From an uncultured Bacillales bacterium (GTDB lineage Bacteria; Bacillota_I; Bacilli_A; RF39; UBA660): a DNA stretch of 64,000 nucleotides. Location of the stretch: positions 435 to 64,434 of the forward strand of contig CAMNCL010000005.1 of the NCBI GenBank assembly GCA_946534345.1, written 5' to 3'. Positions within the stretch are counted from its first letter, which is position 1. Every line of letters begins with the position of its first letter. The notes under the pieces are model-generated. The model did not search any database. It was not told where the DNA came from and saw only the letters and a program-made list of their open reading frames with translations. Position numbers and translations under genes: made by a program. Positions 12,453 through 64,000 of the stretch are shown here, one piece after another.

Positions 12453-13232
12453 TTAGTATAAACCCCATTCTGCTAGTTTTTCAAAACCACCTATTTCATT
12501 AATATAATCTCTAGCAATCTCAACTATCTCAGTGTATGGAATTCCATCTACTTCTTCATCACCTATAGCACAACATAGTTTTATCTCTCTATTTTCTTTT
12601 TGGGCTTTCAAGAATGCATAAATATTTATACTTACATCAGCCTTTGATAAATCTTTTCCATGAAGTCCTCCACCAGTTACAGATTCAGCCATATCAGATC
12701 CAAGTTTTCTATTAGTCGCACCACTATCGGTATTAATACCACCTATCCAGTCTCCTAATGGATTAATTACTGCATCAGGATAATCTTTTCTCAACTCTTC
12801 GCTTGATACATTACTCTGACAAATAATTAATTTATCACTTAAAATATATTTACCATCAAACGGATATTTATTATAAATATCATGAGCAATCTTTGATAAC
12901 TTTTTATCACATTCTTTTAATGGTACACCTTTAAAAATACCATTATCACCACATCTAATTTTATCTTTTTGGTTATTAGCTAAATACTCATCTTGTCTAA
13001 CTACTTGTAGATCAACAACTACTTCTCCTGCAATTCTTTTAACTATTAAATCTATTTCATCTTTTTTAAAATCTTCACTTGTTTCAATAATAATATGACA
13101 ATTACCATGTCCTAATAATACTTCAACTGCAATCTTTGGATTATCATTTTTAGTATAGGCTAAATCAACTATAGCTCCAGCTATCCTATCAGCCTGTTTG
13201 TCCGGATGTGCTGGATTAACTTTTTCTATCAT
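12453..13232 (-). CDS. miniaturised S-adenosylmethionine synthetase (MetK)-like protein
   Basis: 259 aa. PAHPDKQADRIAGAIVD compares with MetK GHPDKICDQISDAILD. CGDNGIFKG compares with GAGDQGLMFGYA. TDSGATNRKLGSDM...GGGLHGKDLSKADVS compares with GDAGLTGRKIIVDTYGG..HGGGAFSGKDPTKVDRS. It is the last gene of the S-box-controlled operon. Confidence 0.6.
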   Translation of the reverse strand: MIEKVNPAHPDKQADRIAGAIVDLAYTKNDNPKIAVEVLLGHGNCHIIIETSEDFKKDEIDLIVKRIAGEVVVDLQVVRQDEYLANNQKDKIRCGDNGIFKGVPLKECDKKLSKIAHDIYNKYPFDGKYILSDKLIICQSNVSSEELRKDYPDAVINPLGDWIGGINTDSGATNRKLGSDMAESVTGGGLHGKDLSKADVSINIYAFLKAQKENREIKLCCAIGDEEVDGIPYTEIVEIARDYINEIGGFEKLAEWGLY

Positions 13233-13233
13233 T

Positions 13234-13434
13234 TTATTCCTCCTTTAAATACTTTGAATAAGCTATTTTTCCAAATATATTATCCATACAATATATCAAA
13301 AAATTTATATCTGCATTAGACATTTTTTTTAAAGCTTTTTCTTTCTCTTTAGATGTTTTATACTCCTTTTGAAATTTTAGTATAATTTCCCTTCTCTCTT
13401 TTTCTGTTAACTCTTGTAATTCACTTAATTTCAT
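13234..13434 (-). CDS. small hypothetical protein (S-box operon gene 2)
   Basis: 66-aa ORF, 1 nt from the MetK-like gene and 9 nt from the upstream ORF. I recognised no motif. Confidence 0.5.
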   Translation of the reverse strand: MKLSELQELTEKERREIILKFQKEYKTSKEKEKALKKMSNADINFLIYCMDNIFGKIAYSKYLKEE

Positions 13435-13443
13435 TTAAACCTC

Positions 13444-13758
13444 CTAATCTAGCATTTTTAATGGATGATTTGTATCATACTTTTTATAAATATTATAGAT
13501 TTGAACAAACTCACTTTTTGTGATTGCATGATTCCCTACTGGAATTGTTAGACCAACTCCTGGTATTCCAAATGCATAAATTTTACTATTTAAATTTACA
13601 TAAATCCAATTTATTCCCGGAAAGTGTCCTTTTCTTCCCCAAGAATTGAATCCTTCTTTTTCTAAAAAAGCAATAAAATTAGAATACCATCCTTTTTTTA
13701 GTTCATCATCTTTTATTAAAAAGGCACTACTTCCAGAAGAGATTCGATTAGAATCCAT
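13444..13758 (-). CDS. hypothetical protein (S-box operon gene 1)
   Basis: 104-aa ORF. GGAGGAT precedes its ATG, directly after the riboswitch terminator. I recognised no motif. Confidence 0.55.
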   Translation of the reverse strand: MDSNRISSGSSAFLIKDDELKKGWYSNFIAFLEKEGFNSWGRKGHFPGINWIYVNLNSKIYAFGIPGVGLTIPVGNHAITKSEFVQIYNIYKKYDTNHPLKMLD

Positions 13759-13788: not shown

Positions 13789-13906
13789 AAAAAAAGACTC
13801 AAGATAACCTTGAGTCCTAAAGTTATCTTATAGATCTAGCATTACCACCTAACTTAATAGGTTGGTGTGACTTCATAGGGCTAGTCCCTCCATCACTCTT
13901 TATAAG
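13789..13906 (-). promoter_or_regulatory. SAM-I (S-box) riboswitch with intrinsic terminator
   Basis: Minus strand reads CUUAUAAAGAGUGAUGGAGGGACUAGCCCUAUGAAGUCACACCAACC...GGUGGUAAUGCUAGAUCUAUAAG. It matches the S-box core: CUUAUC.AGAG, GGAGGGA, GCCC.AUGAA, CAACC, GGUG..AAU, AUAAG closing P1. It is followed by GACUCAAG-GUUAU-CUUGAGUC plus U7 (13789..13817). Confidence 0.9.
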
Positions 13907-13946
13907 ATGTAAATTCATTATAACATTATTTTTATTAATATCAAGT

Positions 13947-14330
13947 CTAATTTAAATTATCATTAATTATTAACAAATATGCTTCATATGGAAAAAATAA
14001 CATATATCCAACATATTCATATATTAATATTAAATATTTGCATTTTTCCATTGTATCAGTAGCTTTTTCTAAAGCATCTTCATATTCTTTTAACTTAATA
14101 ATATCACTATTAGTAGCATTATCAAATCTAGTAACATCTAAGATATATTCTTTATATTTTATATCTATTTTTGCTTCTAAATTACTATCATTAAAATACT
14201 TATTTTCATATGCTAATAATTCTTCTTTAGAATTAATCTTATTATTTTTTATAATATCAATTAACTTTTCACAAATATCATCATTATTACTATATTTATG
14301 CTTTTCAAGTTCTTCAATTAATTCTATCAT
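13947..14330 (-). CDS. hypothetical helical protein, translationally coupled to the deaminase gene
   Basis: 127-aa ORF. Its ATG overlaps the upstream stop as ATGA (14327..14330). The C-terminus is hydrophobic/aromatic (YLILIYEYVGYMLFFPYEAYLLII). Confidence 0.55.
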   Translation of the reverse strand: MIELIEELEKHKYSNNDDICEKLIDIIKNNKINSKEELLAYENKYFNDSNLEAKIDIKYKEYILDVTRFDNATNSDIIKLKEYEDALEKATDTMEKCKYLILIYEYVGYMLFFPYEAYLLIINDNLN

Positions 14331-17299
14331 CGTATTTTACCCCCTTTATCAACAACACTTTCAATATATTCATCTAAATCATACTTTTTACTATCTACCG
14401 TTTCCTTTATACTATCAAATTTAGTCTCAATATTTAAATAATCAGCTAAGCTTAAAACTCCCATAACACCATGTCTTAAATCATCATCACTATTATAATA
14501 ATTATCCTTCTCGATTTTTCTAATATAATCATCTATTATAGACATTGTATAATCAACTTTTCCATCTATAAGCTCTAGGTTACTATTTAAAAAATCTTTT
14601 AGTTTTCTATATTCTCCTTTAAGATCATTCAAGCTTATATTACCAAAAATATTATTCCTGTTATTATAATTATTATCAACATCATCAATTCTATATTTAT
14701 TTACTACTTTAGTAGTTAAACATTCTTCAAAGTCAACTCCATAGGCTTCCATTAAATATAAAACTTCTGTTAACTCTATACGATAATTCATAACCCCTTG
14801 TAGTGAAACTAAAAGCATAGCTGCTTTTGTATAACGTTTTTCATCCAAGAATTTTTCTATTCTATCAAATGTTTTACTAATTAGCATTAACTCTGAATTG
14901 TTATAGTATAATTCATTAGATATTAAGTCTACAAAATATCTTTGTGTTTCTATAAATTCTCGTTTTAGTTTACTAATTTCTTCTCTATTTTCATCACCAT
15001 TAATTGAATACAGTTGTTTAAAATAACTTCTGACATATTTCTTTTGACTAGCAGCATTTTCATATTCTGAATAAAACTCATGTTCATCATTTTTAGAAGG
15101 CAAGTAGTCCTTAATAGACATACTCATATCTAATCCAGTATTCTTTCCCTTCTTTTTAGGTGGCTTTACTTTAGGTAAGAACAAATCAAGACATTCATCA
15201 AATTCTCCAGTACCTTTACTTTTTTCTTTACTTTTATCAAGATTTTTTTCCCTCTTTAGTTTTGAAAAAATCAATTTTACTTCTTGAGGTAAGGTCGTTA
15301 AATAAAATCCTCCACCATCAGTTCCTAAAACAACATCTATTCCATGTTTTATATATTTATCATATGGTATCTCTTTTAAAGATTTTAAGTTACCTAGTGA
15401 AAAATTTGAACTAGGACATAATTCCACTGTAACATTAAAATGTTTTAACAATTCATAGTATTCTTTTGTATCTACAAAATGAAGGGCATGTCCAAGTCTA
15501 ATGTTTAATCTATCTCTTAAAGAAAAATTATCTTTTAAATCTTTAATACGCTCTACTTCTCTATCAAAATCATCCAGAGAATGAGTTTCTAAGTATTTAA
15601 TAATTTTATATTCTCTTTTGGCTTTTTCTAATTCAAGGAGTTCACTCTCATCATAACTATAGTCTTTTGAACTAAAATCTCCTACTTTAGACTCATCTCT
15701 TTTAATTTTTTTATTCAAGGTTTCGAGTCTTCTGCTTTGTTTATTTCTCTGGGATTCTGATAGATTCTCTTTTTTTAACATGTTTATTATTTGATCCCGC
15801 TCTACGACCCTTTTCTCATAGTTTTCAATTAAATCTTTCATATCATTTTTACTAGCGTTTAAATAACGATCATGAAGCATACTTTTTCGCTTAAGGTCTT
15901 CCATGAATTCTTCTGTTATCAAGCCTTTTTTATATCTATCCATTAAATCATAGAGTTCTGCATATTCATTTTTTATTTCATCTTCGATTGATTTTAAAAT
16001 CTGTAAAGTTATAAGTGGATTAGAGGCACTCTCATCATAAAACAGTTCACCAGCATGTAATCGTAATGTAGGTTTTTTATCATTATTTCTTGAACCAACT
16101 AACAATTTTGTAGTTAAATACTTTAGTCTTGAGTAAAGTGTATTACACTCTTCTCTACTATCTGTTTTATCTTTTTCTGTAATTAAATTTTCTTCTCCCA
16201 TTAAATCAGCACCAATAACTTCAGTGGGATAATTCTCAAGTAGATCTATTAAAAAATCACAATTTCTACTAAAATCAGTTCCTTCTTGATTACGCTCATG
16301 ACTTTGTAAAAACTTAAACTCTATCTCATCAACTCTACGCTTACCAATTTTTCCAAGTATTCCTTCTATAGTTCTAGAACCAGAGTAACTAAATTCAACA
16401 TAATTAACTCCTTGCTTTTTTAATACCTCTAAACTTGTAAAAAGCAACTCAGAATAAACATCTAGTTTAAACTCATCATATAACTCTTGCTTTTTTTCAT
16501 CTAGCTGCTCCATCATCCTCTTTTTGGTCTCGTATTCAGCAACTTTGCTTTCATCTTTTTTTATTTCTTTTTTTAATTCTTTTGTCTCACTATCTAAGTT
16601 GTCATATTTTTCTTCTATATCTACTAGAAGCTTAAATTGTTTCTCTTCTTTATTTTTAGCGTGATTATAAATCGTATAATTTAACAAAGCTTGTCTAACA
16701 GGAAGTCGGTCCTTCAAATATTGGAAATCAACTTGTCTATCTACAGGAGCTTCTAATTGTTCTAAGATTTTATTATCTTTTATAGCATCATCAATTGGAA
16801 TTTCTACATATTGTGATTTATCATATTCGCCTCTAACATACTTGCGTTCAGTCATACGTGCTATTTTACCAGTTTCTTTATCAACTAGAATATAATCGAT
16901 GTATCCAAATTCTTTTACAAACCTAAGTAATTCTTCTCCACTTAATACTTCTATAAAATGAGTATGTAATTCTTTAGTAGTATCTAAATCAGGATGTGGA
17001 TTATCTTTCTTAAACATTTTCTTATTATCAGCATATTCTTTATCTAAACCCTTGCTAGCTTTATCTGAAGCAGCATTTTTAACTTCAAATGTTGTAAGAT
17101 TAACATAACTATTAAATATGCCGGTATTAATATCTATTTCACCAATAGGGTTTCCATATAATTCTAAAATATACTTGTCTTTTACTTTTCTAAAATAATA
17201 TGAATCTTTTGGAGCTCTATGATCATTAATTATAACTATATTTCCATCTATAATATCATAATCAATATATAAATATTCATTAATATTAATCTTCATCAT
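14327..17299 (-). CDS. large adenosine/AMP-deaminase-fold protein with helical insertions and extra N- and C-terminal domains
   Basis: All adenosine deaminase (ADA) metal/catalytic motifs are present in order: KELHTHF (HxH), VNYVEFSYS, VIGADLMGEE, LRLHAGE, RLGHALH, VELCPSSN, VVLGTDGGG. There are insertions of ~70 aa and ~160 aa of coiled-coil-like sequence and a ~300-aa C-terminal extension. I moved the start to the ATG at 17299, 8 nt after AGGAG. The track GTG lies within that site. Confidence 0.7.
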   Translation of the reverse strand: MMKININEYLYIDYDIIDGNIVIINDHRAPKDSYYFRKVKDKYILELYGNPIGEIDINTGIFNSYVNLTTFEVKNAASDKASKGLDKEYADNKKMFKKDNPHPDLDTTKELHTHFIEVLSGEELLRFVKEFGYIDYILVDKETGKIARMTERKYVRGEYDKSQYVEIPIDDAIKDNKILEQLEAPVDRQVDFQYLKDRLPVRQALLNYTIYNHAKNKEEKQFKLLVDIEEKYDNLDSETKELKKEIKKDESKVAEYETKKRMMEQLDEKKQELYDEFKLDVYSELLFTSLEVLKKQGVNYVEFSYSGSRTIEGILGKIGKRRVDEIEFKFLQSHERNQEGTDFSRNCDFLIDLLENYPTEVIGADLMGEENLITEKDKTDSREECNTLYSRLKYLTTKLLVGSRNNDKKPTLRLHAGELFYDESASNPLITLQILKSIEDEIKNEYAELYDLMDRYKKGLITEEFMEDLKRKSMLHDRYLNASKNDMKDLIENYEKRVVERDQIINMLKKENLSESQRNKQSRRLETLNKKIKRDESKVGDFSSKDYSYDESELLELEKAKREYKIIKYLETHSLDDFDREVERIKDLKDNFSLRDRLNIRLGHALHFVDTKEYYELLKHFNVTVELCPSSNFSLGNLKSLKEIPYDKYIKHGIDVVLGTDGGGFYLTTLPQEVKLIFSKLKREKNLDKSKEKSKGTGEFDECLDLFLPKVKPPKKKGKNTGLDMSMSIKDYLPSKNDEHEFYSEYENAASQKKYVRSYFKQLYSINGDENREEISKLKREFIETQRYFVDLISNELYYNNSELMLISKTFDRIEKFLDEKRYTKAAMLLVSLQGVMNYRIELTEVLYLMEAYGVDFEECLTTKVVNKYRIDDVDNNYNNRNNIFGNISLNDLKGEYRKLKDFLNSNLELIDGKVDYTMSIIDDYIRKIEKDNYYNSDDDLRHGVMGVLSLADYLNIETKFDSIKETVDSKKYDLDEYIESVVDKGGKIR

Positions 17300-17422
17300 T
17301 ATAATCACTCCTATATTAATATAATAACATAAAAATTATTATTAATAATAGATATATTTACTCAATAATATATCTTTTTTTTTATAGCTTTTTCTTGTAT
17401 AATTATTTAAAGGAGAGTGAAT

Positions 17423-20801: not shown

Positions 20802-21317
20802 TTAATTATTTATATCAAGTATTTCTCTATACTCTTTATCTGAATATGCGCATACTAATACTTCTATATTATAATCTTTATTCTCTTTTATAAATGTATT
20901 ATAAGCTTTTATACATTGATCTAGAGACGTTTTAGCAGGATGTGGATTATTACCTCCAAATATACCTGAACTAATTAATGGAAAAGCTACACTATGTAGA
21001 TTATTATCTTTTAGTACTTTTAATGAATTATAATAAGCATTATATAAATCATCTAATCTATCACTTCTATTAAAATCAGGTCCTACTGCATGGATTATAT
21101 ACTTACAATTACTTATATTAAAAGAATCAGTAATTACTGCATCACCATCATTTAATGGTGTTTTTAATTGACTACAAGCCTCATTTAATTCTTTATAACC
21201 TGCTCTTTTATATATTTCTCCACATACTCCAGATCCAGACATTAAATATTCATTAGCAGCATTAACAATAGCATCTACTTCTTGATTTACACAAGAGTCT
21301 TTAATAATTTTTATCAT
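20802..21317 (-). CDS. macro domain protein (MacroD-type ADP-ribose/O-acetyl-ADP-ribose hydrolase)
   Basis: 171 aa. It carries VDAIVNAANEYLMSGSGVCGEIYKRAG, IIHAVGPDF and VAFPLISSGIFGG, the canonical macro-domain motifs. Confidence 0.9.
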   Translation of the reverse strand: MIKIIKDSCVNQEVDAIVNAANEYLMSGSGVCGEIYKRAGYKELNEACSQLKTPLNDGDAVITDSFNISNCKYIIHAVGPDFNRSDRLDDLYNAYYNSLKVLKDNNLHSVAFPLISSGIFGGNNPHPAKTSLDQCIKAYNTFIKENKDYNIEVLVCAYSDKEYREILDINN

Positions 21318-21318
21318 A

Positions 21319-22164
21319 TTACATATTACCTACTATTACTTTTCCATCTAGATTACATATATAACAATCAGGTAATTTATCTTTTATATATTCAAGCGCC
21401 TTTGTGTCTTTTTCTATCTTTCTACCAACAAATATTCCTTCTATTAAGCAATTTGGTAATCCAAACATAATAGCTGATTCTCTATCTGTAGTAGATGCAT
21501 CTCTATTAAATCTCTCATTATCAATAAATTTATCTACGTAACGATAATCTAAAAAATTTTCTAATATTTCTCTATCAAAATCCAAATTCCAAACATCATT
21601 ATACGCAAGCTCTTTAGCATAATCACTTTCCATATTTAAAATAAATGCAATCTGTCTTTTATTAGATACCCAGCTTGGAATAAAACTTACTTCTTTTGTC
21701 TTATTACCCCAATACATCCAAATTTCTTCACTATCATTTATTCTTTCCGTTACTTCATCAAACTTATGATAAGGAATTAATTCACTTACATTAGTAGCTT
21801 CTGGGCCTCTACCAATACTATAAGTAATAGTAAAACCACTATATTGCTCTATATAATCTCTTAATAAAATATCTTCTTTAATATTCCACATACCTACACT
21901 ATTAGATATCTTATTAGCTCTAGCTTGATTTGTAAAATCTACTGCAATAAACCCATTATTAATGGTATAATCAAAGTTTTCTAATTCGCCAAATATACCA
22001 TGTATAAATGTACCTTTTTTGAGTTTTACATCTTCTCCCACATTATACTTATTCTTAATAATATTTTGATTATCTTTATAAAACAAATCTACTTGTTTTA
22101 ATAATATATCTTTTGTTTTACCATTAAATCTATTATTAATATTTTCAATATATTTATCTTTCAT
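21319..22164 (-). CDS. hypothetical protein tightly coupled to the macro domain gene
   Basis: 281-aa ORF. There is 1 nt between its stop and the macro ATG. I recognised no motif. Confidence 0.65.
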   Translation of the reverse strand: MKDKYIENINNRFNGKTKDILLKQVDLFYKDNQNIIKNKYNVGEDVKLKKGTFIHGIFGELENFDYTINNGFIAVDFTNQARANKISNSVGMWNIKEDILLRDYIEQYSGFTITYSIGRGPEATNVSELIPYHKFDEVTERINDSEEIWMYWGNKTKEVSFIPSWVSNKRQIAFILNMESDYAKELAYNDVWNLDFDREILENFLDYRYVDKFIDNERFNRDASTTDRESAIMFGLPNCLIEGIFVGRKIEKDTKALEYIKDKLPDCYICNLDGKVIVGNM

Positions 22165-55388: not shown

Positions 55389-58300
55389 CTAGTCTCTTAT
55401 TCTTACATAATTAACAGTATTTGATGGATTATAAATATAAGGACTATTTGCTGCTTCCATCTCAGATACTGGAATCTTTTTACCTGTTGGAGTAATTGTT
55501 GGATTACCAGAATATCCATCATAAGTAACGGAATATACAGCATAATAATCTTGTCCATCATAAGTAGTTGAGGTTAATAAATCAGTAACAGGAATAGATT
55601 CAGTACGAGGCATTGTTCTCTTTCTTAACCCAATTGCCATCATATATCTAACAGGTTGTCCACTTACTTCTGGATACTTAAAGCAATCAATAAATGAACA
55701 ATTCTTAGTAACTTCACTTGTTTCCTCTACTGTTATGTCATTACCATTAGCATCTTGTGATGTAATTTTTTTAGGACATAATTTTTCAGGTTTAAATCTA
55801 TCTTGATATTTCAATTTTTGTGTATATAAACCAACTATACCAGAAGTATCATATACTCTTTCTGATTTTAAAGCATCTTTATCATTAGGATCAGTTACTT
55901 CAGAAGCTTGAGCATAATAACACAATCCTGCAACTGTACCATTAGAACATGTACTTGCACTAATCTTTGTACCGGTAATACCTGTACCATCAGTTGTAGG
56001 AACTTGTTTATTTAAGAATGTAAAACTTCCTGCGCTTTCATCCTCTTCTATTTCAGCACAGTCATTAACAGTATGTCCTAATACAGGAGTTCCTTCAGAA
56101 ATATTTCCATAAGAATCTTGAACGAAAACATAATACTCTGTATATGTTGTTCCTACACCTTCCTCATCTACAAAGTATTGTAAATATTCATTTTTATCTT
56201 TAACATAATATACCATTCCTGAAGTAACATCATCTGCTGAAAAACCTTCTCCATTAGCTTTACCAACAAATTTTCCAGTACATTTACTCTTATTATTTTC
56301 TTGAGCAACGCATATTTTATAAGTGTCAAACTTATCATCAACATCAACACTAACTATTATTTTAGGTTTGTCTGGACTTGATCCAACAGCTTGTGTTACA
56401 CCTTCCGGTTCAGTAAAGTTTTCTTCTTCATCATCAACCAAACCATTATGATTGATATCTCTTCCCCATACTGCAGTATATGTAATTACATTTTGACTAT
56501 TGGCATTAGTGCCAGAAACATATTCTTCCACTACTGGATTCCAGTAAGAGAACACATAGTTATTATCTCTAGAGCTTGGTAGAGTAAGGCCTCCACTATA
56601 TTCAGTTGTTTCTCCCGCATATGGTGGCGTAGAATCACCCGCAGATAAATTAGAGAAAAGTGTTTTTCCTTCTACATTTTCTGTGAAATTACCATACCTT
56701 CTATTACCAGTATTACCAGTTACATATTTTACTGTATAAGTTCCAGTATCTTCACTTGGGTCAGTTGATGGGGTTGGCTCAGGTATATCCGTTCCTTCAC
56801 CTTCACCTTCATCGTTCATATCAATTTCTAATCCACCTTGGTATGTTGCAACAGCAGACTTAATAACTGGTGCTGTATCAGTATATAATTTATAAGTCTG
56901 TGCAGCCAAGTATTTACTTTGATCTGTTGATGTAACTTTTCCTAAACTATCTTTAATTCTTGCATATATAACAAAATCATGATTAGCTGATCTTGCATAT
57001 GATGCTGAATCCAATGTAATTGGATATTCATGATCATAAGTATAATCCATATAGTTTGTACATGCTATAGCACTATTTGCACTACTACTCTTTGCTCTAT
57101 AACATACTTGTACTTGTAAATTTAGTGGTAACTCATAATCATCAGTTGCGTCGACTTTATATTTAACATTTTTGGAATTGTAATATGTTGTAGATATTAC
57201 TTCACCTGCTTCATTTTTCTCTTCATAAGGTGCTACTGTTGATTCTACTGATATAGAATCTTCAACAATTGTAGGAGCTTCATTTTTGTAAACAGTATAC
57301 TCTTGTGAAACACGTGTAGTAGATTCTTCTGAGTCCATAGCATATACGTATAAAGTATGTTTAGAACCATCATAAACATTATTAATACTTTTTCCTATAT
57401 TAAATTCAAAAGTCTTTTCTGCTTCAGTAAATTTAGAATATCTAAAATACTTTCCATCTAATATACAGTCATGTACATATTCTTTAGCAGAAGTCTTTGT
57501 AGATGTACAAACTTGCTTTCTCTCACATTTACTAGCATCCTCAGTTAAACATATTAATAAATCGTCTAAATCAGGATCTTCTGAATCAATATCATCTTCT
57601 ATATCAAAATCAACTGTAACATTAGGATTTCCACTATTTAAATAAGGACAAGTATAATTAGCATGACAGTTTCCAGTTTTTGGAGTTATTTTAAAGTATC
57701 CTGTTCTTACTTCTTCTTCATCAGGAATTCCATTTCCATCTACATCTTCTTTATATTCTGCAACATAAACAATTTCACATTGGTTAGTATCCGTAGCATT
57801 AACAGATCCACAATTAGTTCTAGTAGCCATCTCAGCTTGAATAGTATCTGATAAATAAGGTTTCCATCTAGTAAATACCCAACCTTGTTGAGCTTTTGGC
57901 TTTTCAAACACTTGAGGTTCTACAGGCACTGTAGGTTCTTCAGAAGTACCTTCACCATCTTCACCAGTTTCAGGTTCTGGTTCATCCTGCTTTTCAACAT
58001 ATATTGATTTATCTCCAGCAAATTCTGGTGTTGTTGTATCTAAAGAACATCCTCTAAATAATGTTTTCCCTTCTTCACCTTCTATGAAATCACCATGTTC
58101 ACCTTTCATATACTTAACTGTGAATTTTTCATCTGCATCAGGAATATTATTCTCATTTCTATCATCTTCATGTGCTTCATCAAATTCAAATGGCTGATCA
58201 TCTACTTCTGCTGCAGGTGTACCCATAGCAAAAATTGTAGGTGGTTGATTAGCATATAATTTGTAAGTTGCCTCTAAATTTTTTGTAGCTTCATTATATG

Positions 58301-60551
58301 TATCATATACTTCTAAAACTATTTTTTTAGTTTTACCATCATGTTTACCAGGTATACGATATTCTATTCCAGATTCGTTGTTCTCAACTTTTTTAAATGT
58401 ATTATCTTGATACTCAACAGCTCCTGATTCACTAAGTATTTTAACTTTATATCTTAAATCGTCTACTTTATCAATATCATCCTTAACATTAAAGAATATT
58501 CTTGTATCCAATGAACCAGTAACTGTGTAAGACTTTGATTCTGATTTTACTTCATAGTTTGTAACTGCTGGTGCTTTATTTTTGTATAGCTTATAAGTAA
58601 CTTTATTACCAGTAGTAGCATCATAATTTGTACTACCATTACTATCTTTAGCAATAATGTAAAGTGTTTTAGTTGTACCATCATATGGAGCTGTAGTTTT
58701 ATTCTTATTGAATACATATTCATGTCCACTTACATAATTTGAGAATGGTTCAAAATTAGCAGTATTTTCAGGTCTACAGTCTGCTTTATTTTCTGACATA
58801 CAAACTTTTATTTTTCTTTCAATATCATCGTAATCTAGGTCATCATCAACAGCAAAAGAAACTGTTGCCTTTTGATTACCACCTGAACTTAAAGGACATT
58901 GTTCTTCATCATTACAAGCAAACCCATTACTCTCTACATTAATATTTGATAATACCGGAGGTTTATTTTGATATACTTTATATGCTTTAGTAACATCTTT
59001 ATAAACTCCACATTCATCAGTAAGTCTTACTGTTATATTTCTATTTTGTCCATCATATTGACCATTAATAGTAAATGGAGTTTCTGCACTTGTATCTAGC
59101 ATATCTAATTTCTTAGTAGTACTATTAGGTTCTTTTATCTCTACTTTAATTTTAGAGTTAGTTGAAACATCATCAGAGCCAACTGTTTTAACTCGAATAT
59201 TTAAACTTCCAGAAGTAACTGAATTATCCATAAATGCTTCTTTTTCAGAAGTTATTGTTACTGAATCTATTACAGGTGGATTATTTTTAGCTATAGTATA
59301 ACTAAAGACATTTTCTTTATTTATTAATCCCTTTGTATCTCTAACAAATACTCTAACATTTTTTGTTTGACCATTCATAACACATTCATTTGACTCAAAA
59401 GAATATAACATTTCATTATCTTCTTCAAACAAATCTCTATAAGGCTTATAATCTTTGCAGGTTTCTTCGCTAGTATTTTCATTGAAACATACTTCAAGAT
59501 TTCTATAATCATCAATATCATCAGAAACACTTAGTCTGAAGACTGCAGTTGGTCTATTAACTTTATCACCTACCTGTTTAGAGAAACCTGATTCTTCTTT
59601 AACAACTGTAGGTGCCCCATTTTCATGAAGTCTATAAACTATATTAGTACGGTCTTCATTTTTTTCCTTATCTCGAACAACTATAAATAAATTTACTATT
59701 GAATTATTTTCATAATTGAAATTATATGGTTTTTGATCAAAATTAAACTTTTTTGTGAAAGAATTGTTTATACCATAAGATTCACCAGTACATGTAGCAC
59801 ATAAAGCATCACTATAACTAGTTGTAGATATATATACCTTTAAAGAACTACCAGGAGAATCTTCATCTTCAACTGTTAATGTTAATGTTGCGTCTAGTGA
59901 ATTGAATGGTTTTCCTGATGTAGAAGTCAAAGTAGCTTTAGTAATAACTGGTGGTTCTAATCCTCCAGAAGATGCATCATCATCTAATTTAGGTTCATTG
60001 TATACTTTTTCAATTGAATCTACATATTGACCACCTAATCTACCATTAATATAAGTAGAATTATCAAAATGCGAATCATCAGTTACTTTAACTATATAAT
60101 TAATACCCTTTACGTACTTAGAAGCCGCATTTCTTTCATGTAATTTGGAACTGCTAGTCAATTCTATTCCTTTGTAGCCACCCTTTGGCATTTTTTCAAC
60201 TATTGCTCCAGAGTATTCTAATCTACCTCCATCGTTTTTAACAACTACATATGAGGCTTCTTTAACATATTCTCCTCTATTAGGCGCTGTATCAAAATCA
60301 CTATCATCTAAATAAACCAAACTGATTACAATACAATTTCCATCAGAAGGTTTTTCGATATCTGTATTTGCCGCTTTCATTTTATACTCTGCTTGAGCCA
60401 TTAGTTTTTGAACATCAGTAACATACATTTTATCTCTATTGCTACCTACCATTCCAGTAATCGCTGGTGCAGCAAACATAAAAATAATTCCTAATATTAC
60501 TATTGTTGCCAAAAGCTCAATTAATGTAAAACCTTTATTACCCTTTTTCAT
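55389..60551 (-). CDS. giant modular type IV pilin/pseudopilin-like surface protein (1720 aa)
   Basis: The N-terminus MKKGNKG|FTLIELLATIVILGIIFMFAAPAI is a prepilin cleavage/methylation signal with Glu at +5. About 8 repeated acidic modules end in Y-x-x-Y-x-N-x-P-P-x-I/V. Two Flg_new-like inserts are at nt ~57708..58127 and ~56421..56741. The C-terminal domain is Cys-rich. Confidence 0.8.
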   Translation of the reverse strand: MKKGNKGFTLIELLATIVILGIIFMFAAPAITGMVGSNRDKMYVTDVQKLMAQAEYKMKAANTDIEKPSDGNCIVISLVYLDDSDFDTAPNRGEYVKEASYVVVKNDGGRLEYSGAIVEKMPKGGYKGIELTSSSKLHERNAASKYVKGINYIVKVTDDSHFDNSTYINGRLGGQYVDSIEKVYNEPKLDDDASSGGLEPPVITKATLTSTSGKPFNSLDATLTLTVEDEDSPGSSLKVYISTTSYSDALCATCTGESYGINNSFTKKFNFDQKPYNFNYENNSIVNLFIVVRDKEKNEDRTNIVYRLHENGAPTVVKEESGFSKQVGDKVNRPTAVFRLSVSDDIDDYRNLEVCFNENTSEETCKDYKPYRDLFEEDNEMLYSFESNECVMNGQTKNVRVFVRDTKGLINKENVFSYTIAKNNPPVIDSVTITSEKEAFMDNSVTSGSLNIRVKTVGSDDVSTNSKIKVEIKEPNSTTKKLDMLDTSAETPFTINGQYDGQNRNITVRLTDECGVYKDVTKAYKVYQNKPPVLSNINVESNGFACNDEEQCPLSSGGNQKATVSFAVDDDLDYDDIERKIKVCMSENKADCRPENTANFEPFSNYVSGHEYVFNKNKTTAPYDGTTKTLYIIAKDSNGSTNYDATTGNKVTYKLYKNKAPAVTNYEVKSESKSYTVTGSLDTRIFFNVKDDIDKVDDLRYKVKILSESGAVEYQDNTFKKVENNESGIEYRIPGKHDGKTKKIVLEVYDTYNEATKNLEATYKLYANQPPTIFAMGTPAAEVDDQPFEFDEAHEDDRNENNIPDADEKFTVKYMKGEHGDFIEGEEGKTLFRGCSLDTTTPEFAGDKSIYVEKQDEPEPETGEDGEGTSEEPTVPVEPQVFEKPKAQQGWVFTRWKPYLSDTIQAEMATRTNCGSVNATDTNQCEIVYVAEYKEDVDGNGIPDEEEVRTGYFKITPKTGNCHANYTCPYLNSGNPNVTVDFDIEDDIDSEDPDLDDLLICLTEDASKCERKQVCTSTKTSAKEYVHDCILDGKYFRYSKFTEAEKTFEFNIGKSINNVYDGSKHTLYVYAMDSEESTTRVSQEYTVYKNEAPTIVEDSISVESTVAPYEEKNEAGEVISTTYYNSKNVKYKVDATDDYELPLNLQVQVCYRAKSSSANSAIACTNYMDYTYDHEYPITLDSASYARSANHDFVIYARIKDSLGKVTSTDQSKYLAAQTYKLYTDTAPVIKSAVATYQGGLEIDMNDEGEGEGTDIPEPTPSTDPSEDTGTYTVKYVTGNTGNRRYGNFTENVEGKTLFSNLSAGDSTPPYAGETTEYSGGLTLPSSRDNNYVFSYWNPVVEEYVSGTNANSQNVITYTAVWGRDINHNGLVDDEEENFTEPEGVTQAVGSSPDKPKIIVSVDVDDKFDTYKICVAQENNKSKCTGKFVGKANGEGFSADDVTSGMVYYVKDKNEYLQYFVDEEGVGTTYTEYYVFVQDSYGNISEGTPVLGHTVNDCAEIEEDESAGSFTFLNKQVPTTDGTGITGTKISASTCSNGTVAGLCYYAQASEVTDPNDKDALKSERVYDTSGIVGLYTQKLKYQDRFKPEKLCPKKITSQDANGNDITVEETSEVTKNCSFIDCFKYPEVSGQPVRYMMAIGLRKRTMPRTESIPVTDLLTSTTYDGQDYYAVYSVTYDGYSGNPTITPTGKKIPVSEMEAANSPYIYNPSNTVNYVRIRD

Positions 60552-61923: not shown

Positions 61924-63064
61924 AAATATCACTCTCTTCTATTAGTGTAATCCATTCTTCTCCAACTATATCACTTGTGTATTTCTTCACACTATTTCTA
62001 GCTTGTTTACCAATTCTTATTCTTTCACTTTTATTATTAATTAAATCTTCTATTTTCATTATCATAGCATCAAAATTTCGATTTTTAATTAAATAACCAT
62101 TATCTCCACTATTTATAATTTCTCTTGCTCCTTCTGCAGAATCAAATGCAATACAAGGAACACCATGACTCATAGCTTCAATCAATACAATTCCAAATGA
62201 TTCAGTATATGATGTCATCAAGTAAATAGCAGAATCATCTAGTATTTTATCAATATAATCTTTTCCTTGAAAACCATGAAGTATAACTTTACCATTAAGA
62301 TTATTATCTTCAATATACTTCTTTAATTTGTCTTTTTGTACCCCATCTCCAATAATATCTAGAACCCAATCAGGATTCTTTTTACTTAAACGATTAAATA
62401 TTTTAAGTAAATCCAAATAACCTTTTTCAGGAGATAGTCTTCCTACAGAAACAAGTCTTTTATTAGTCAAGGTTGCACTTTTTTTAGGTAATTTATCAAT
62501 AGAATTAGGTATGTATATACACATACAATTACTATTACGTAATTTTTCAGCATAGAATTTTTGTAACTCAGAAGAAACTAATACTAAATAATCTAAGTTC
62601 TTTGCACTATTAGATACTTTTTCTGCATACTTCATATTTTCATGGAAATGATTATGTTCCCATCCAATTTTTAAAATTCCATCCTGACAATAACCACTTA
62701 CCCAATAATTAAAAATATCTCTAGTTGAAATAATTACATCACAATCAGTATTCCTTATATAATCAACCATTGTTTTTTTTCGATAATATAAGACTTTTGT
62801 AGAAAATATTAATTCTCTTATAATTTTAATAATATTTTTACTCTTTAAAGCATTTCTTAAAGATTCATGATTTGGCTTCAAATTCTTATTTAAATATTTT
62901 ACTTTTACTTTATCTTTTAATTCAAAAACACTATTATCATAAAGCTTGTAACATACAGCTATTTCTACTTCATATTTTTCACACAAGGTATTGGCCAAAT
63001 TAACAACACACTTTTCAATTCCTCCATACCCTAAATGTAAGGCTAAAATAGAGATTTTTTTCAT
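61916..63064 (-). CDS. glycosyltransferase family 4 (GT-B, Glycos_transf_1)
   Basis: 382 aa. VGRLSPEKGYLDLLKIF and SYTESFGIVLIEAMSHGVPCIAFDSAEGAREII form the EX7E region. Confidence 0.9.
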   Translation of the reverse strand: MKKISILALHLGYGGIEKCVVNLANTLCEKYEVEIAVCYKLYDNSVFELKDKVKVKYLNKNLKPNHESLRNALKSKNIIKIIRELIFSTKVLYYRKKTMVDYIRNTDCDVIISTRDIFNYWVSGYCQDGILKIGWEHNHFHENMKYAEKVSNSAKNLDYLVLVSSELQKFYAEKLRNSNCMCIYIPNSIDKLPKKSATLTNKRLVSVGRLSPEKGYLDLLKIFNRLSKKNPDWVLDIIGDGVQKDKLKKYIEDNNLNGKVILHGFQGKDYIDKILDDSAIYLMTSYTESFGIVLIEAMSHGVPCIAFDSAEGAREIINSGDNGYLIKNRNFDAMIMKIEDLINNKSERIRIGKQARNSVKKYTSDIVGEEWITLIEESDIYD

Positions 63065-63081
63065 ATTATCACCCTATTCAT

Positions 63082-63109
63082 ATTATAGCATTATTTATTA
63101 TTAATTCAA
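63082..63109 (-). promoter_or_regulatory. sigma-A-type promoter of the glycosyltransferase/giant-pilin block
   Basis: The minus strand has TTGAAT (63109..63104), a 16-nt spacer and TATAAT (63087..63082), followed by AGGGTGA and the GT4 ATG. Confidence 0.5.
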
Positions 63110-63122
63110 AGAAAATACAAAT

Positions 63123-63147
63123 AAAAAAAGCATTCATAGAATGCTTT
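63123..63147 (-). terminator. rho-independent terminator after the Pro/Ala/Met-rich gene
   Basis: Minus strand reads AAAGCAUUC-UAU-GAAUGCUUU followed by U7. Confidence 0.65.
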
Positions 63148-64000
63148 ATTGAACTGGTGTTACAGGTGCTTCCACCATTGCTGGTTGTTCTACAGCTGGT
63201 GCTACTTCAGGAACTACTGGAGCAACTCCTTGCATTGTAGGATCAGCAGCTGGCGCCATTTCTGGCATTGCAGGTTCACTAGCAACTGGTTGTTCTACAG
63301 CTGGTGTTTCTACCATTGCTGGTTCTTGAACAACTGGTTCTGCTGCAGGAGCTACTTCTGGAACTGCAGGTTGTTCTACCATAACAGGTTCTGGAGCAGC
63401 TGCAGGTGCAACTGAAGGCATAGTTTGGGTATTTTCTAATGGATCTGCACCACCATAAATTTGGTGATTAGTTTCCTGATTAACATTAATATTATCAACA
63501 GCTGGACTAGCTCCTCCATAAATTACTGGAGCTTCTTGAGCAACTGGCTCTGCTGCTGGTGCCATTTCTGGCATTGCAGGTTCTGCTGCTGGTGCAGCTT
63601 CTGGCATTGCAGAATCTACTGCTGGTGCAATTGGTTCAACTGCTGGTGCAACTTCTGGCATTGCAGGTTCTGCTGCTGGTGCCATTGGTTCAACTGCTGG
63701 CGCCATTTCTGGCATTGCAGGTTCTGCTGCTGGTGCAATTGGTTCAACTGCTGGTGCAACTTCTGGCATTGCAGGTTCTACTGCAGGTGCTGCCATCGGA
63801 TCAACTACTGGAGCTGCCATAGCGTCCATTGGTTGTTCTACAGCTGGCATTTCTGGCATTGCAGGAGCCATAGGGTCAACTGCTGGTGCAACTTCTGGCA
63901 TTGCAGGTTCTACTGCAGGTGCTGCCATTGGTTCAACTGCTGGAGCTGCCATAGCATCCATTGGTTGTTCTACTGGTGTTGCGATATCTGCTGGCATTGC
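63146..64000 (-). CDS. C-terminal part of a Pro/Ala/Met/Glu/Val-rich repetitive protein (5' end outside window)
   Basis: The frame is open to the window edge (855 nt, in frame). It has degenerate units such as APAVEPMAPAAEPAMPEMA, and a central non-repeat segment with two IYGGA(S/D)P motifs. Confidence 0.7.
   Translation of the reverse strand, partial: AMPADIATPVEQPMDAMAAPAVEPMAAPAVEPAMPEVAPAVDPMAPAMPEMPAVEQPMDAMAAPVVDPMAAPAVEPAMPEVAPAVEPIAPAAEPAMPEMAPAVEPMAPAAEPAMPEVAPAVEPIAPAVDSAMPEAAPAAEPAMPEMAPAAEPVAQEAPVIYGGASPAVDNINVNQETNHQIYGGADPLENTQTMPSVAPAAAPEPVMVEQPAVPEVAPAAEPVVQEPAMVETPAVEQPVASEPAMPEMAPAADPTMQGVAPVVPEVAPAVEQPAMVEAPVTPVQ
63744..63973 (-). repeat. imperfect 98-nt direct repeat at 132-bp spacing within a shorter degenerate repeat field
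   Basis: By manual alignment, 63744..63841 recurs at 63876..63973 with about four substitutions. The motif ctggtgcaacttctggcattgcaggttc occurs at least four times between 63640 and 63910. Confidence 0.7.

What the first reader, a model, noticed from the sequence alone, without database searches (positions are those of the whole stretch)
13947..17299. Orphan RdrB-like giant adenosine deaminase translationally coupled to a 127-aa ORF
Seen in sequence: the ~990-aa protein carries every adenosine/AMP deaminase motif in order: KELHTHF, VNYVEFSYS, GADLMGEE, LRLHAGE, RLGHALH, VELCPSSN, LGTDGGG. The fold is interrupted by a ~70-aa and a ~160-aa Lys/Glu-rich helical insertion. It is flanked by a ~100-aa N-terminal domain and a ~300-aa helical C-terminal domain. 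Its stop overlaps the start of a 127-aa ORF as ATGA. Established knowledge: housekeeping Add enzymes are ~330-350 aa. Very large insertion-bearing adenosine deaminases are known from anti-phage systems: RADAR RdrB, which needs the RdrA ATPase, and CARF-fused Cad1. Both deaminate ATP/dATP. No RdrA-like ATPase, CARF domain or CRISPR/CBASS gene lies in the window. The flanks are a SAM-riboswitch operon and a TMEM43-like gene. Inference: this could be a two-gene (deaminase plus small partner) nucleotide-depletion or defence module distinct from RADAR.
Basis: partly seen in the sequence, partly recalled or inferred. Interest (0 to 1): 0.7.

Follow-up and report, generated by a model that had tools for sequence, protein, structure and literature searches.

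The report
Giant deaminase with obligate small partner
A 990-residue adenosine-deaminase-type enzyme and a 127-residue helical protein form a conserved, so far undescribed gene module in low-GC gut bacteria; it is not a RADAR-type system, nothing ties it to phage defence, and its substrate is unknown.

Summary
A 990-aa ORF (14327-17299, minus strand) carries all seven listed deaminase motifs in order. Its stop overlaps the start of a 127-aa ORF as ATGA.

The RdrB-like defence reading is not supported. No RdrB or RdrA profile matches. No RdrB structure appears among sequence or fold matches. The largest insertion lies where RdrB has none. The family is absent from the phage, plasmid and viral-contig collections searched. 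Neighbours in about 11 contexts are housekeeping genes. GC content is native and no mobile-element marks flank the locus.

What is there is a new multi-part enzyme module. The small partner follows the deaminase in every locus examined. In three distant relatives the about 270-aa C-terminal domain is a separate gene lying between deaminase and partner. The enzyme belongs to a large unnamed clade of the adenosine/AMP deaminase superfamily (signature LHTH...RxHxGE...SSN...TDGxGxY). This clade lacks the second active-site Asp of the characterised enzymes I recall.

The module lies next to a SAM riboswitch in three different arrangements. Elsewhere it adjoins purA, a YfbR-like nucleotidase or a NUDIX gene.

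Most likely it is a regulated adenine-nucleoside/nucleotide deaminase complex. A new defence or growth-arrest system is not excluded, because the enzyme evolves unusually fast.

The parts
14327..17299 (-). Giant deaminase CDS (990 aa plus stop). It is identical to database protein P0001. A different cluster (P0003/P0191, 36% identical) is named 'hypothetical protein [Bacilli bacterium]' at NCBI; P0001 itself carries no name.
   Evidence: Pfam PF00962 hit at residues 604-678
17308..17312 (-). AGGAG ribosome-binding site, 8 nt upstream of the ATG at 17299
   Evidence: read directly from the sequence
16985..17299 (-). N-terminal beta-rich domain (residues 1-105). It is family-specific and optional in the wider family.
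   Evidence: no PDB sequence match
16664..16984 (-). Catalytic segment a (residues 106-212), containing the metal-binding H112-x-H114 (ELHTHF)
16454..16663 (-). Insertion 1 (residues 213-282): Lys/Glu-rich long helices, absent in P0004, P0005 and P0007
16028..16453 (-). Catalytic segment b (residues 283-424): YVEFSYS, DLMGEE, and RLHAGE with H415 and E418
15524..16027 (-). Insertion 2 (residues 425-592): six-helix insertion between the HAGE and GH histidines, absent in P0007, P0031 and L007
15260..15523 (-). Catalytic segment c (residues 593-680): GHALH (H604), ELCPSSN and GTDGGG (D661). This is the only part that reaches significance against ADA profiles.
14330..15133 (-). Helical C-terminal domain (residues 723-990) with the conserved KAAxLLVSLQ motif. 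It is encoded as a separate gene in L014, and by position also in L022 and L023.
   Evidence: no PDB sequence match
13947..14330 (-). 127-aa all-helical partner. Its start overlaps the deaminase stop (ATGA), with a GGGGG ribosome-binding site at 14340-14344.
13794..13818 (-). First intrinsic terminator downstream of the partner. It is the terminator of the adjacent SAM riboswitch, so read-through transcripts of the module would end here (inferred).
13825..13908 (-). Neighbouring SAM riboswitch, with its own promoter-like site at 13917-13944. It is a separate transcription unit but a recurrent neighbour of the module.

Best explanation
The locus encodes a catalytically competent, metal-dependent purine aminohydrolase of the adenosine/AMP deaminase superfamily. 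It belongs to an uncharacterised clade with the signature [DE]LHTH...RxH[AS]GE...N/C-x-[ST]SN...TDGxGxY.

It works as an obligate multi-part enzyme with these parts:
- a TIM-barrel deaminase core;
- an optional N-terminal beta domain;
- optional coiled-coil 'stalk' insertions;
- a helical C-domain, fused here but a separate gene in some relatives;
- a 127-aa helical subunit made by translational coupling.

Shown: the domain anatomy, the intact catalytic residues, the strict gene linkage, the fusion/fission of the C-domain, and the chromosomal, syntenic, non-mobile context.

Inferred: the C-domain and partner bind the enzyme and control its assembly or activity. The substrate is an adenine nucleoside or nucleotide tied to adenylate/SAM by-product turnover (candidates: AMP/dAMP, 5'-methylthioadenosine, S-adenosylhomocysteine, 5'-deoxyadenosine). 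The module serves metabolite-pool control in these small-genome, very low-GC gut Bacilli rather than mobile anti-phage defence.
For: Catalytic residues. H112, H114, H415, E418, H604 and D661 are invariant in all seven family members. They are kept across about 170 relatives.

Superfamily. PF00962 scores 43 bits against a cut-off of 27. The best PDB sequence matches are Plasmodium ADA (1.6e-8; 2e-9 with the profile) and plant N6-mAMP deaminase. The best fold matches are ADGF/snail AMP deaminase, ADAL and ADA2.

Linkage.
- In every locus where the upstream DNA was held, the partner lies -4 to +7 nt after the deaminase gene. In the split forms it follows a 'middle' gene, usually just as closely (one 35-nt overlap as the ORFs were called).
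- The partner is 67-69% identical between syntenic relatives, with dN/dS 0.18-0.22.
- The partner model has pLDDT 94.

Fusion/fission. L014 encodes 508-aa, 242-aa and 132-aa proteins. The 242-aa protein matches the C-domain part of the family profile (E 1.6e-9) and the 132-aa protein matches the partner profile (E 1.4e-19). L022 and L023 show the same three-gene order. Fused forms appear in at least two places in the core tree.

Non-mobile context.
- The same TMEM43...module...SAM-riboswitch/MetK...HSP20...RluD order recurs in several lineages.
- Module GC is 0.262 against 0.272 for the window.
- The window has no tRNA and the module has no flanking repeats.
- There are no hits in viral contigs, phages or plasmids.
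- No defence family recurs among 135 neighbour proteins. The few PADLOC hits I traced were generic HTH, ABC ATPase and HSP90 domains.

Metabolic neighbours. A SAM riboswitch adjoins the module in three arrangements: the window clade, L019, and L012 with a full-length MetK. Other neighbours are purA (L018), Inositol_P plus a YfbR-like HD nucleotidase, NUDIX and a PLP enzyme.
Against: - No substrate assignment is possible. The Asp that binds purine N7 in ADA is replaced by an invariant Gly, so the substrate may not be a plain adenine nucleoside.
- Metabolic neighbours are recurrent but not universal. Promoter and terminator scans indicate that the riboswitch/MetK units are transcribed separately.
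- The enzyme is the fastest-evolving gene of its syntenic block: 36-37% identity against 54-95% for neighbours, with dN/dS 0.37. Its tree position disagrees with synteny. That is unusual for a housekeeping enzyme and typical of conflict genes.
- A 3-kb enzyme with coiled-coil stalks and two orphan helical parts is extravagant for simple salvage.
- Physical interaction of the parts was not modelled or tested.
Confidence: 0.45

Rival explanations
1. A new RADAR-independent anti-phage or abortive-infection system. The giant deaminase depletes ATP/dATP (or makes ITP/dITP) when the C-domain and small partner sense infection and release or assemble the enzyme.
For: - By analogy with RdrB and Cad1, very large ADA-family enzymes with extra domains do act in defence (PMC9994260, PMC11645235).
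- The deaminase is the most divergent gene in its block, and its dN/dS of 0.37 is higher than that of most neighbours.
- The insertions vary in length between relatives.
- The deaminase tree is incongruent with synteny.
- A recombination tract ends exactly at the deaminase start in L002/L005.
- The wider TDG clade includes multidomain giants. One of them has a nucleoside 2-deoxyribosyltransferase-like domain, a type of domain I recall, from memory, being discussed for conflict systems.
Against: - There is no RdrB, RdrA or other specific defence profile hit.
- No defence neighbours recur in about 11 contexts.
- The family is absent from IMG/VR, phage and plasmid collections.
- The chromosomal position is fixed across lineages and the composition is native.
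- One exact sequence of a relative was seen on 37 contigs, which suggests a stable species gene.
- The partner is under strong purifying selection.
Confidence: 0.25
2. The enzyme does not deaminate an adenine nucleoside or nucleotide at all. The Asp-to-Gly change after the metal-binding Asp re-tunes the pocket for another amino-heterocycle, for example guanine-like, 7-deazapurine, pterin or a modified base. The accessory parts deliver that substrate.
For: - TDG replaces the TDDP motif of the characterised ADA, AMPD and ADAL enzymes I recall, in every family member and about 70 relatives.
- Weak hits to guanine deaminase TIGR02967 (3.5e-4), 2i9u (1.9e-6) and TM0936 (7e-4) fall on the same segment.
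- From memory, guanine and MTA/SAH deaminases of COG0402 carry GTDG-type motifs.
Against: - The DLxGxE and ExCPxSN motifs and the Pfam and Foldseek matches place it in the ADA/AMPD family, not COG0402.
- The neighbours point to adenine compounds.
Confidence: 0.15
3. A toxin-antitoxin-like pair. The deaminase is a growth-arresting toxin and the translationally coupled small protein is its antidote.
For: - A small gene is tightly coupled to a potentially toxic nucleotide-modifying enzyme.
- The linkage is strict.
Against: - The partner has no DNA-binding domain and no family or fold match.
- It is more conserved than the enzyme, whereas antitoxins usually are not.
- The module is not patchy or mobile.
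- A third part, the C-domain or middle protein, is always present.
- The toxin would be 990 aa.
Confidence: 0.08

Closest known systems
RADAR RdrB (ATP/dATP deaminase, dodecameric shell, works with the RdrA AAA+ ATPase)
   Same: Both are ADA-superfamily TIM barrels with the His set plus Glu, about 90-115 kDa. Both have an N-terminal extension and helical insertions, and both come with a second protein.
   Different: - There is no RdrB profile or PDB sequence match, and no RdrB structure appears in the top 50 fold matches.
- No RdrA was found in the window or in 14 related loci.
- The largest insertion sits between the HAGE and GH histidines, where RdrB has 32 residues.
- It has a ~270-aa C-domain and a 127-aa partner instead of RdrA.
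- The context is not a defence context.
Cad1 / CAAD (CARF-fused ATP deaminase of type III CRISPR)
   Same: The deaminase domain is fused to regulatory domains. The PADLOC CARF_ADA model hits the C-terminal catalytic segment (E 8e-10).
   Different: The hit covers only the deaminase part (profile positions 473-554 of 605). There is no CARF domain and no CRISPR genes. PDB E-values are only 0.008-0.1.
Housekeeping adenosine deaminase Add and Plasmodium ADA
   Same: These are the best sequence matches (1.6e-8; 2e-9 with the profile), with the same catalytic residues and motif order. From memory, Plasmodium ADA also accepts 5'-methylthioadenosine.
   Different: - This protein is three times longer.
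- TIGR01430 scores 43.6 bits against a cut-off of 216.55.
- The second Asp of TDDP is Gly.
- It has extra N- and C-domains, insertions and a partner.
AMP deaminase / ADGF-type AMP deaminase / ADAL (N6-mAMP deaminase)
   Same: These are the top Foldseek matches (9ntk, 9nte, 8qch). They are large regulated enzymes acting on nucleotides. The purA neighbour in L018 would complete a purine nucleotide cycle.
   Different: No AMP deaminase model was listed in the NCBIfam scan. The DD motif is missing. Fold scores are weak (E ~5e-3, TM 0.3-0.35 on the target).
Kongming KomA (dAMP deaminase with KomB HAM1 and KomC SIR2)
   Same: A three-gene operon built around a PF00962 deaminase (bioRxiv 10.1101/2024.12.20.629578).
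   Different: KomA's catalytic HxH lies at H15/H17, so it has no N-terminal extension. The partners here have no HAM1 or SIR2 domain, and the gene order and sizes differ.
MtaD/DadD (MTA, SAH and 5'-deoxyadenosine deaminases, COG0402)
   Same: Both link to SAM by-products (here through gene neighbourhood). As I recall, those enzymes also carry a GTDG-type motif after the metal-binding Asp.
   Different: They belong to a different amidohydrolase family. NF005557 scores 15.5 bits against a cut-off of 522, and TM0936 only 7e-4.

Membership tests
Adenosine/AMP deaminase superfamily (Pfam PF00962) | Profile match above the gathering score | tested here: met
   43 bits against a cut-off of 27, E 4.2e-11, residues 604-678
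Adenosine/AMP deaminase superfamily (Pfam PF00962) | HxH, HxxE, catalytic His and metal-binding Asp, in order | tested here: met
   H112/H114, H415/E418, H604 and D661 are invariant in alignment A1
Adenosine/AMP deaminase superfamily (Pfam PF00962) | Second Asp after the metal Asp (TDDP), which binds purine N7 | tested here: not met
   The motif is GTDGGG. Aligned to Plasmodium ADA SDDPG, the second Asp is Gly. TDG occurs in about 70 relatives.
RADAR RdrB | Match to RdrB-specific profiles or to solved RdrB | tested here: not met
   The PADLOC scan returned only CARF_ADA, and the same held for 10 wider-family proteins. I assumed, but did not check, that PADLOC 2.0.0 holds RdrB models. The PDB profile search at E<=10 lists no chain named RdrB or RADAR, and none is in the top 50 Foldseek hits.
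RADAR RdrB | Encoded next to the RdrA AAA+ ATPase | tested here: not met
   No RdrA hit among the module's neighbours or the large ORFs of the window, nor among 135 neighbours in 13 loci. The rest of the genome could not be searched.
RADAR RdrB | Insertion topology: N-extension, insertion between HxH and the HAGE His, insertion after the last catalytic His (PMC9994260) | tested here: not met
   The N-extension and an insertion after HxH are present. However, the main 168-aa insertion lies between H415 and H604, where RdrB has H498 to H530. After the barrel comes an independent C-domain that can be a separate gene.
RADAR RdrB | Dodecameric shell; ATP/dATP to ITP/dITP conversion | not testable with these tools
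   Needs biochemistry or cryo-EM
Cad1 / CARF-ADA | N-terminal CARF domain and type III CRISPR neighbourhood | tested here: not met
   The PADLOC CARF_ADA hit is limited to profile positions 473-554 of 605. There is no CARF Pfam hit and no cas genes in the neighbourhoods.
Housekeeping Add (TIGR01430 and NF0068xx equivalogs) | Score above the curated equivalog cut-off | tested here: not met
   43.6 bits against a cut-off of 216.55; the others score 20-40 bits against 412-530
AMP deaminase | AMP deaminase profile match and the SLSTDDP motif | tested here: not met
   No AMP deaminase model was listed in the NCBIfam scan at E<=0.01. PDB snail AMPD scores 0.016, or 3.9e-5 with the profile. The motif is GTDGGG.
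MtaD/DadD (COG0402) | Profile match above cut-off | tested here: not met
   NF005557 scores 15.5 bits against a cut-off of 522
Kongming | komA with HAM1-like komB and SIR2 komC in one operon | tested here: not met
   The partner and middle proteins have no Pfam hit. A Ham1 gene in L012 lies 3.6 kb away in an HD-Ham1 operon without SIR2.
Type II toxin-antitoxin | Small antitoxin with a DNA-binding fold; patchy, mobile distribution | tested here: not met
   The partner has no family or fold match. The module keeps a fixed syntenic position.
New 'deaminase + C-domain + small partner' module (defined here) | A partner homologue directly downstream of a TDG-type deaminase or of its split C-domain gene | tested here: met
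   True of every partner-bearing locus where the upstream DNA was held, across about 11 distinct contexts

The most novel reading that the evidence does not exclude
The module is a previously unrecognised three-component nucleotide-deaminating immune or growth-arrest system of low-GC Firmicutes. An orphan helical sensor pair, the C-domain and the 127-aa partner, would gate a giant ATP/dATP (or SAM-related) deaminase. It would be mechanistically parallel to RADAR and Cad1 but evolutionarily independent of them.
Probability: 0.2. Interest if true: 0.8.

Novelty: new variant of a known kind. Interest (0 to 1): 0.5.

Why it matters
This would define a new, sizeable branch of the adenosine/AMP deaminase superfamily. 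The exhaustive profile search found 891 protein clusters at E<=0.001. The few members whose database names I looked up are unnamed or called 'hypothetical protein'.

Two features stand out:
- an altered purine-binding motif (TDG instead of TDDP);
- two orphan accessory parts with no sequence match, and for the partner no fold match, to anything known.

If the enzyme proves to be an AMP or SAM-by-product deaminase complex, it would fill a gap in purine and methyl-cycle metabolism of uncultured small-genome gut Bacilli. If it proves to be a triggered ATP/dATP deaminase, it would be a third, independent invention of nucleotide-deamination immunity.

Either way, the strict three-part linkage and the gene fusion/fission make a complex that can be tested directly in the laboratory.

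Tried and rejected
1. RdrB kinship is rejected. PADLOC, a PDB phmmer search, a PDB profile search at E<=10 and Foldseek against the PDB all failed to return RdrB.
2. Partner homologous to the C-domain repeats. By eye I saw a shared K-x-x-L-[IL]-x-[SI]-L...[FL]P motif, but hhalign gave probability 0.2% and E 0.35, so I dropped it.
3. Remote homology of the N-domain, C-domain and partner to solved structures returned only coiled-coil noise. The partner fold matched nothing in the PDB or BFVD.
4. Phage or plasmid carriage. There were no IMG/VR hits with the partner profile. tblastn against phages and plasmids found nothing for the partner, and only generic add genes for the deaminase. No PHROG family matched.
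5. Defence-island context. PADLOC on 135 neighbour proteins gave single hits only. Those I traced were generic HTH, SufC-type ABC ATPase and HSP90 domains. The PDC-S07 hit (E 3.9e-37) was not traced.
6. Co-transcription with MetK under the SAM riboswitch is not supported. A terminator-like hairpin follows metK in L012. A strong promoter-like site lies between the partner and the riboswitch in the window.
7. A search for the C-domain fused to other effectors returned only P0030, so it is uninformative.
8. Cad1 and Kongming papers were read for active-site motif information. Neither reports the residue after the metal Asp.
9. A first hmmalign-based tree failed because of a bad alignment. It was replaced by a motif-anchored MAFFT/NJ tree, which is rough and has no support values.
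10. The first dN/dS script timed out and was rewritten.

Full report
**1. Observation**

The two ORFs exist as described.
- The ORF listing gives 14327..17308(-), 993 aa from a GTG, and 13947..14330(-), 127 aa.
- The real start of the large gene is almost certainly the ATG at 17299. It is preceded by AGGAG (17312-17308) with an 8-nt spacer. This gives the 990-aa protein P0001 found in public data.
- The junction reads AAA ATA CGA TGA TAG. The stop and the start share ATGA, and a GGGGG Shine-Dalgarno lies 9 nt upstream.
- All seven motifs occur in the order given, at residues 109, 298, 363, 412, 601, 625 and 658.
- Only residues 604-678 reach significance against adenosine deaminase models: Pfam PF00962 E 4e-11, TIGR01430 E 2e-11, Plasmodium ADA 1.6e-8.
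- The HxH, HAGE-Glu, GH and Asp positions are invariant across the family.
- The AlphaFold model has mean pLDDT 69, with 75-93 over most of the barrel and its helical insertions but below 50 in parts of the last catalytic segment. It retrieves ADGF/snail AMP deaminase, ADAL, ADA2 and Plasmodium ADA as best folds.

**2. Anatomy**

The protein has these parts:
- an N-terminal beta-rich domain (1-105);
- barrel segment a (106-212);
- a Lys/Glu-rich helical insertion (213-282, K+E 43%);
- barrel segment b (283-424);
- a six-helix insertion (425-592);
- barrel segment c (593-680);
- a linker;
- a helical C-domain (723-990) with a conserved KAAxLLVSLQ motif.

Both insertions are dispensable in evolution. 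P0004/P0005 lack the first one, and P0007 and P0031 lack both.

**3. The partner and a hidden third part**

The 127-aa protein has 20 homologues in 5.8 billion proteins, nearly all 122-141 aa with a few shorter fragments.
- In every locus where the upstream DNA was held, it lies -4 to +7 nt after the deaminase gene, or after a gene that follows the deaminase.
- It is all-helical, with pLDDT 94.
- It has no Pfam, NCBIfam, PADLOC or PHROG family.
- It has no fold match in the PDB or BFVD.
- The broadly conserved element is the C-terminal [FL]PY[EH]AYxxI helix.

In L014 a 508-aa protein (N-domain plus barrel) is followed by a 242-aa protein and then a 132-aa protein. The 242-aa protein matches the C-domain region of the family profile (positions 768-841, E 1.6e-9). 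The 132-aa protein is a partner homologue (E 1.4e-19).

L022 (366 + 309 + 142 aa) and L023 (382 + 151 + 129 aa) show the same three-gene order with a barrel-only deaminase. Their middle proteins share the motif by eye but are not significant by profile. L012 (784 + 137 aa) and L025 (997 + 134 aa) are distant fused forms.

The unit is therefore deaminase core plus C-domain protein plus small partner. The C-domain has been fused or split at least twice in a rough tree of catalytic cores.

**4. A larger clade**

An exhaustive profile search of 1.84 billion representatives found 891 proteins at E<=0.001 and 54 at E<=1e-30.
- The relatives share the signature [DE]LHTH...RxH[AS]GE...N/C-x-[ST]SN...TDGxGxY.
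- Aligned to Plasmodium ADA, the Gly replaces the second Asp of SDDPG. From established knowledge of mouse ADA, that residue is D296, which binds purine N7.
- The clade also holds undescribed 700-1800-aa proteins.
- The members whose database names I looked up are unnamed or called 'hypothetical protein'.

**5. Is it RdrB-like?**

No.
- PADLOC returns only the CARF_ADA model, on the generic catalytic segment. This holds for the query and for ten large relatives.
- A profile of the family against all PDB sequences at E<=10 lists ADAs, ADAL, ADGF/AMPD, TM0936 and Cad1 (0.008), but no chain named RdrB or RADAR.
- No such entry is among the top 50 fold matches.
- According to PMC9994260, RdrB has an N-extension, an insertion between H154 and H498, and an insertion after H530, with only 32 residues between H498 and H530. 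Here the largest insertion (168 aa) lies exactly between the equivalent histidines (H415 and H604).
- The C-terminal extension here is an autonomous domain that can be a separate gene.
- No RdrA-like profile matches the neighbours or the ten largest ORFs of the window.

**6. Is it a defence module?**

I found no positive evidence.
- The window is ordinary chromosome of an anaerobic low-GC bacterium: PFOR, RecG, PHO4/PhoU, two-component systems, HSP20 and RluD.
- The module has the same GC as its surroundings (0.262 against 0.272). No tRNA was found in the window and no repeats flank the module.
- The same gene order recurs in several lineages: CmpB, Macro, TMEM43, (LysR, ~190-aa ORF), deaminase, partner, SAM riboswitch, short MetK, HSP20, RluD.
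- Other clades place the module among unrelated housekeeping genes.
- Of 135 neighbour proteins from 13 loci, no PADLOC family recurs. The hits I traced are generic HTH, SufC-type ABC ATPase and HSP90 domains.
- The partner profile finds nothing in IMG/VR. tblastn finds no family member on 72,556 plasmids or 50,697 phage records.
- One exact sequence of a relative was seen on 37 contigs, the longest 1.07 Mb. That fits a stable gene of a small genome.

**7. Hints to function**

A SAM riboswitch lies next to the module in three different arrangements:
- downstream, leading a short MetK (window clade);
- downstream after a 175-aa gene, leading an 89-aa ORF (L019);
- upstream, leading a full-length MetK that directly precedes the deaminase (L012).

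Promoter and terminator scans suggest separate transcription units, so the link is positional only.

Other neighbours are:
- adenylosuccinate synthetase (L018);
- an inositol-monophosphatase-family protein plus a YfbR-like HD nucleotidase;
- NUDIX;
- a PLP enzyme.

Sister lineages of the window clade have a divergent LysR regulator and a ~190-aa ORF directly upstream of the deaminase. That layout is typical of metabolite-controlled operons.

Together these favour an adenine nucleoside/nucleotide or SAM-by-product substrate. They do not prove it.

**8. What does not fit a simple housekeeping enzyme**
- Between the window and syntenic relatives the deaminase is 36-37% identical. Its neighbours are 54-95% identical and the partner 67-69%.
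- Even the catalytic segments are only 38-61% identical.
- In two closer pairs dN/dS is 0.37 for the deaminase, against 0.18-0.21 for the partner and mostly 0.07-0.2 for neighbours.
- The window enzyme groups with a clade from a different gene context rather than with its syntenic counterparts.
- L002 and L005 share a 99-100% identical 1-kb tract that ends exactly at the deaminase start, while the flanks have dS 0.8-1.0.

These features keep a conflict-type role alive.

**9. Verdict**

My ranking of the explanations:
- Best: a regulated multi-subunit purine deaminase of a new TDG clade, chromosomal and probably tied to adenylate or SAM by-product turnover (confidence 0.45).
- Rival: a new anti-phage or growth-arrest nucleotide deaminase (0.25).
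- Rival: an altered, non-adenine substrate (0.15).
- Rival: a toxin-antitoxin pair (0.08).

Novelty is a new variant of a known kind. Interest is 0.5.

Noticed in passing
window 12453-13232 (-), with 13234-13434 and 13444-13758: A 259-aa 'short MetK' lies behind the SAM riboswitch and two small ORFs. Only the N-terminal SAM-synthetase domain is recognised (TIGR01034 scores 46.6 bits against a cut-off of 309). It matches phage family phrog_1569 (function unknown) end to end at E 1.3e-67. It is 80% conserved in relatives, with dN/dS 0.10.
   Followed up: partly
window 13794-13944 (-): A compact SAM riboswitch unit. A near-consensus extended -10 promoter (TTGATA-16-TGtTATAAT) begins 3 nt after the partner's stop codon. 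The aptamer is at 13825-13908 and the terminator at 13794-13818. No terminator separates it from the deaminase operon.
   Followed up: yes
L002 4434-5482 versus L005 (LysR 5' end plus 194-aa gene): A 1-kb tract is 99-100% identical at nucleotide level between two lineages whose flanking genes have dS 0.8-1.0. The tract ends exactly at the deaminase start codon, which looks like recent recombination.
   Followed up: partly
L002, L004, L005, L007, L009, L010 upstream of the deaminase; absent from the window: A divergent LysR regulator plus a ~190-aa ORF with no known family sit directly 5' of the deaminase in sister lineages. tblastn finds neither anywhere in the 64-kb window.
   Followed up: partly
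window 21319-22164 (-) and 20802-21317 (-): A 281-aa ORF with no Pfam, PADLOC or PHROG match abuts a Macro-domain gene. The 281-aa gene is missing at this position in relatives L005 and L007.
   Followed up: no
proteins P0085, P0098 (1779 aa), P0101, P0110: The wider TDG-type deaminase clade contains many 700-1800-aa multidomain proteins that match no defence-system model other than the generic CARF_ADA deaminase segment. P0110 carries a nucleoside 2-deoxyribosyltransferase-like C-terminal domain (E 1.5e-5).
   Followed up: no
window 55389-60551 (-): A 1720-aa protein whose only recognisable feature is an N-terminal pilin-type methylation motif.
   Followed up: no
window 63001-64000: GC rises to 0.456 against about 0.27 elsewhere. 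No Rfam family reached its gathering score there. It could be the edge of an rRNA or another conserved RNA gene.
   Followed up: no
L012 12012-13653: An HD, Ham1-like (ITPase family) and 165-aa operon lies 3.6 kb downstream of a distant module. It is probably housekeeping, but it would be relevant if the deaminase makes ITP/dITP.
   Followed up: no
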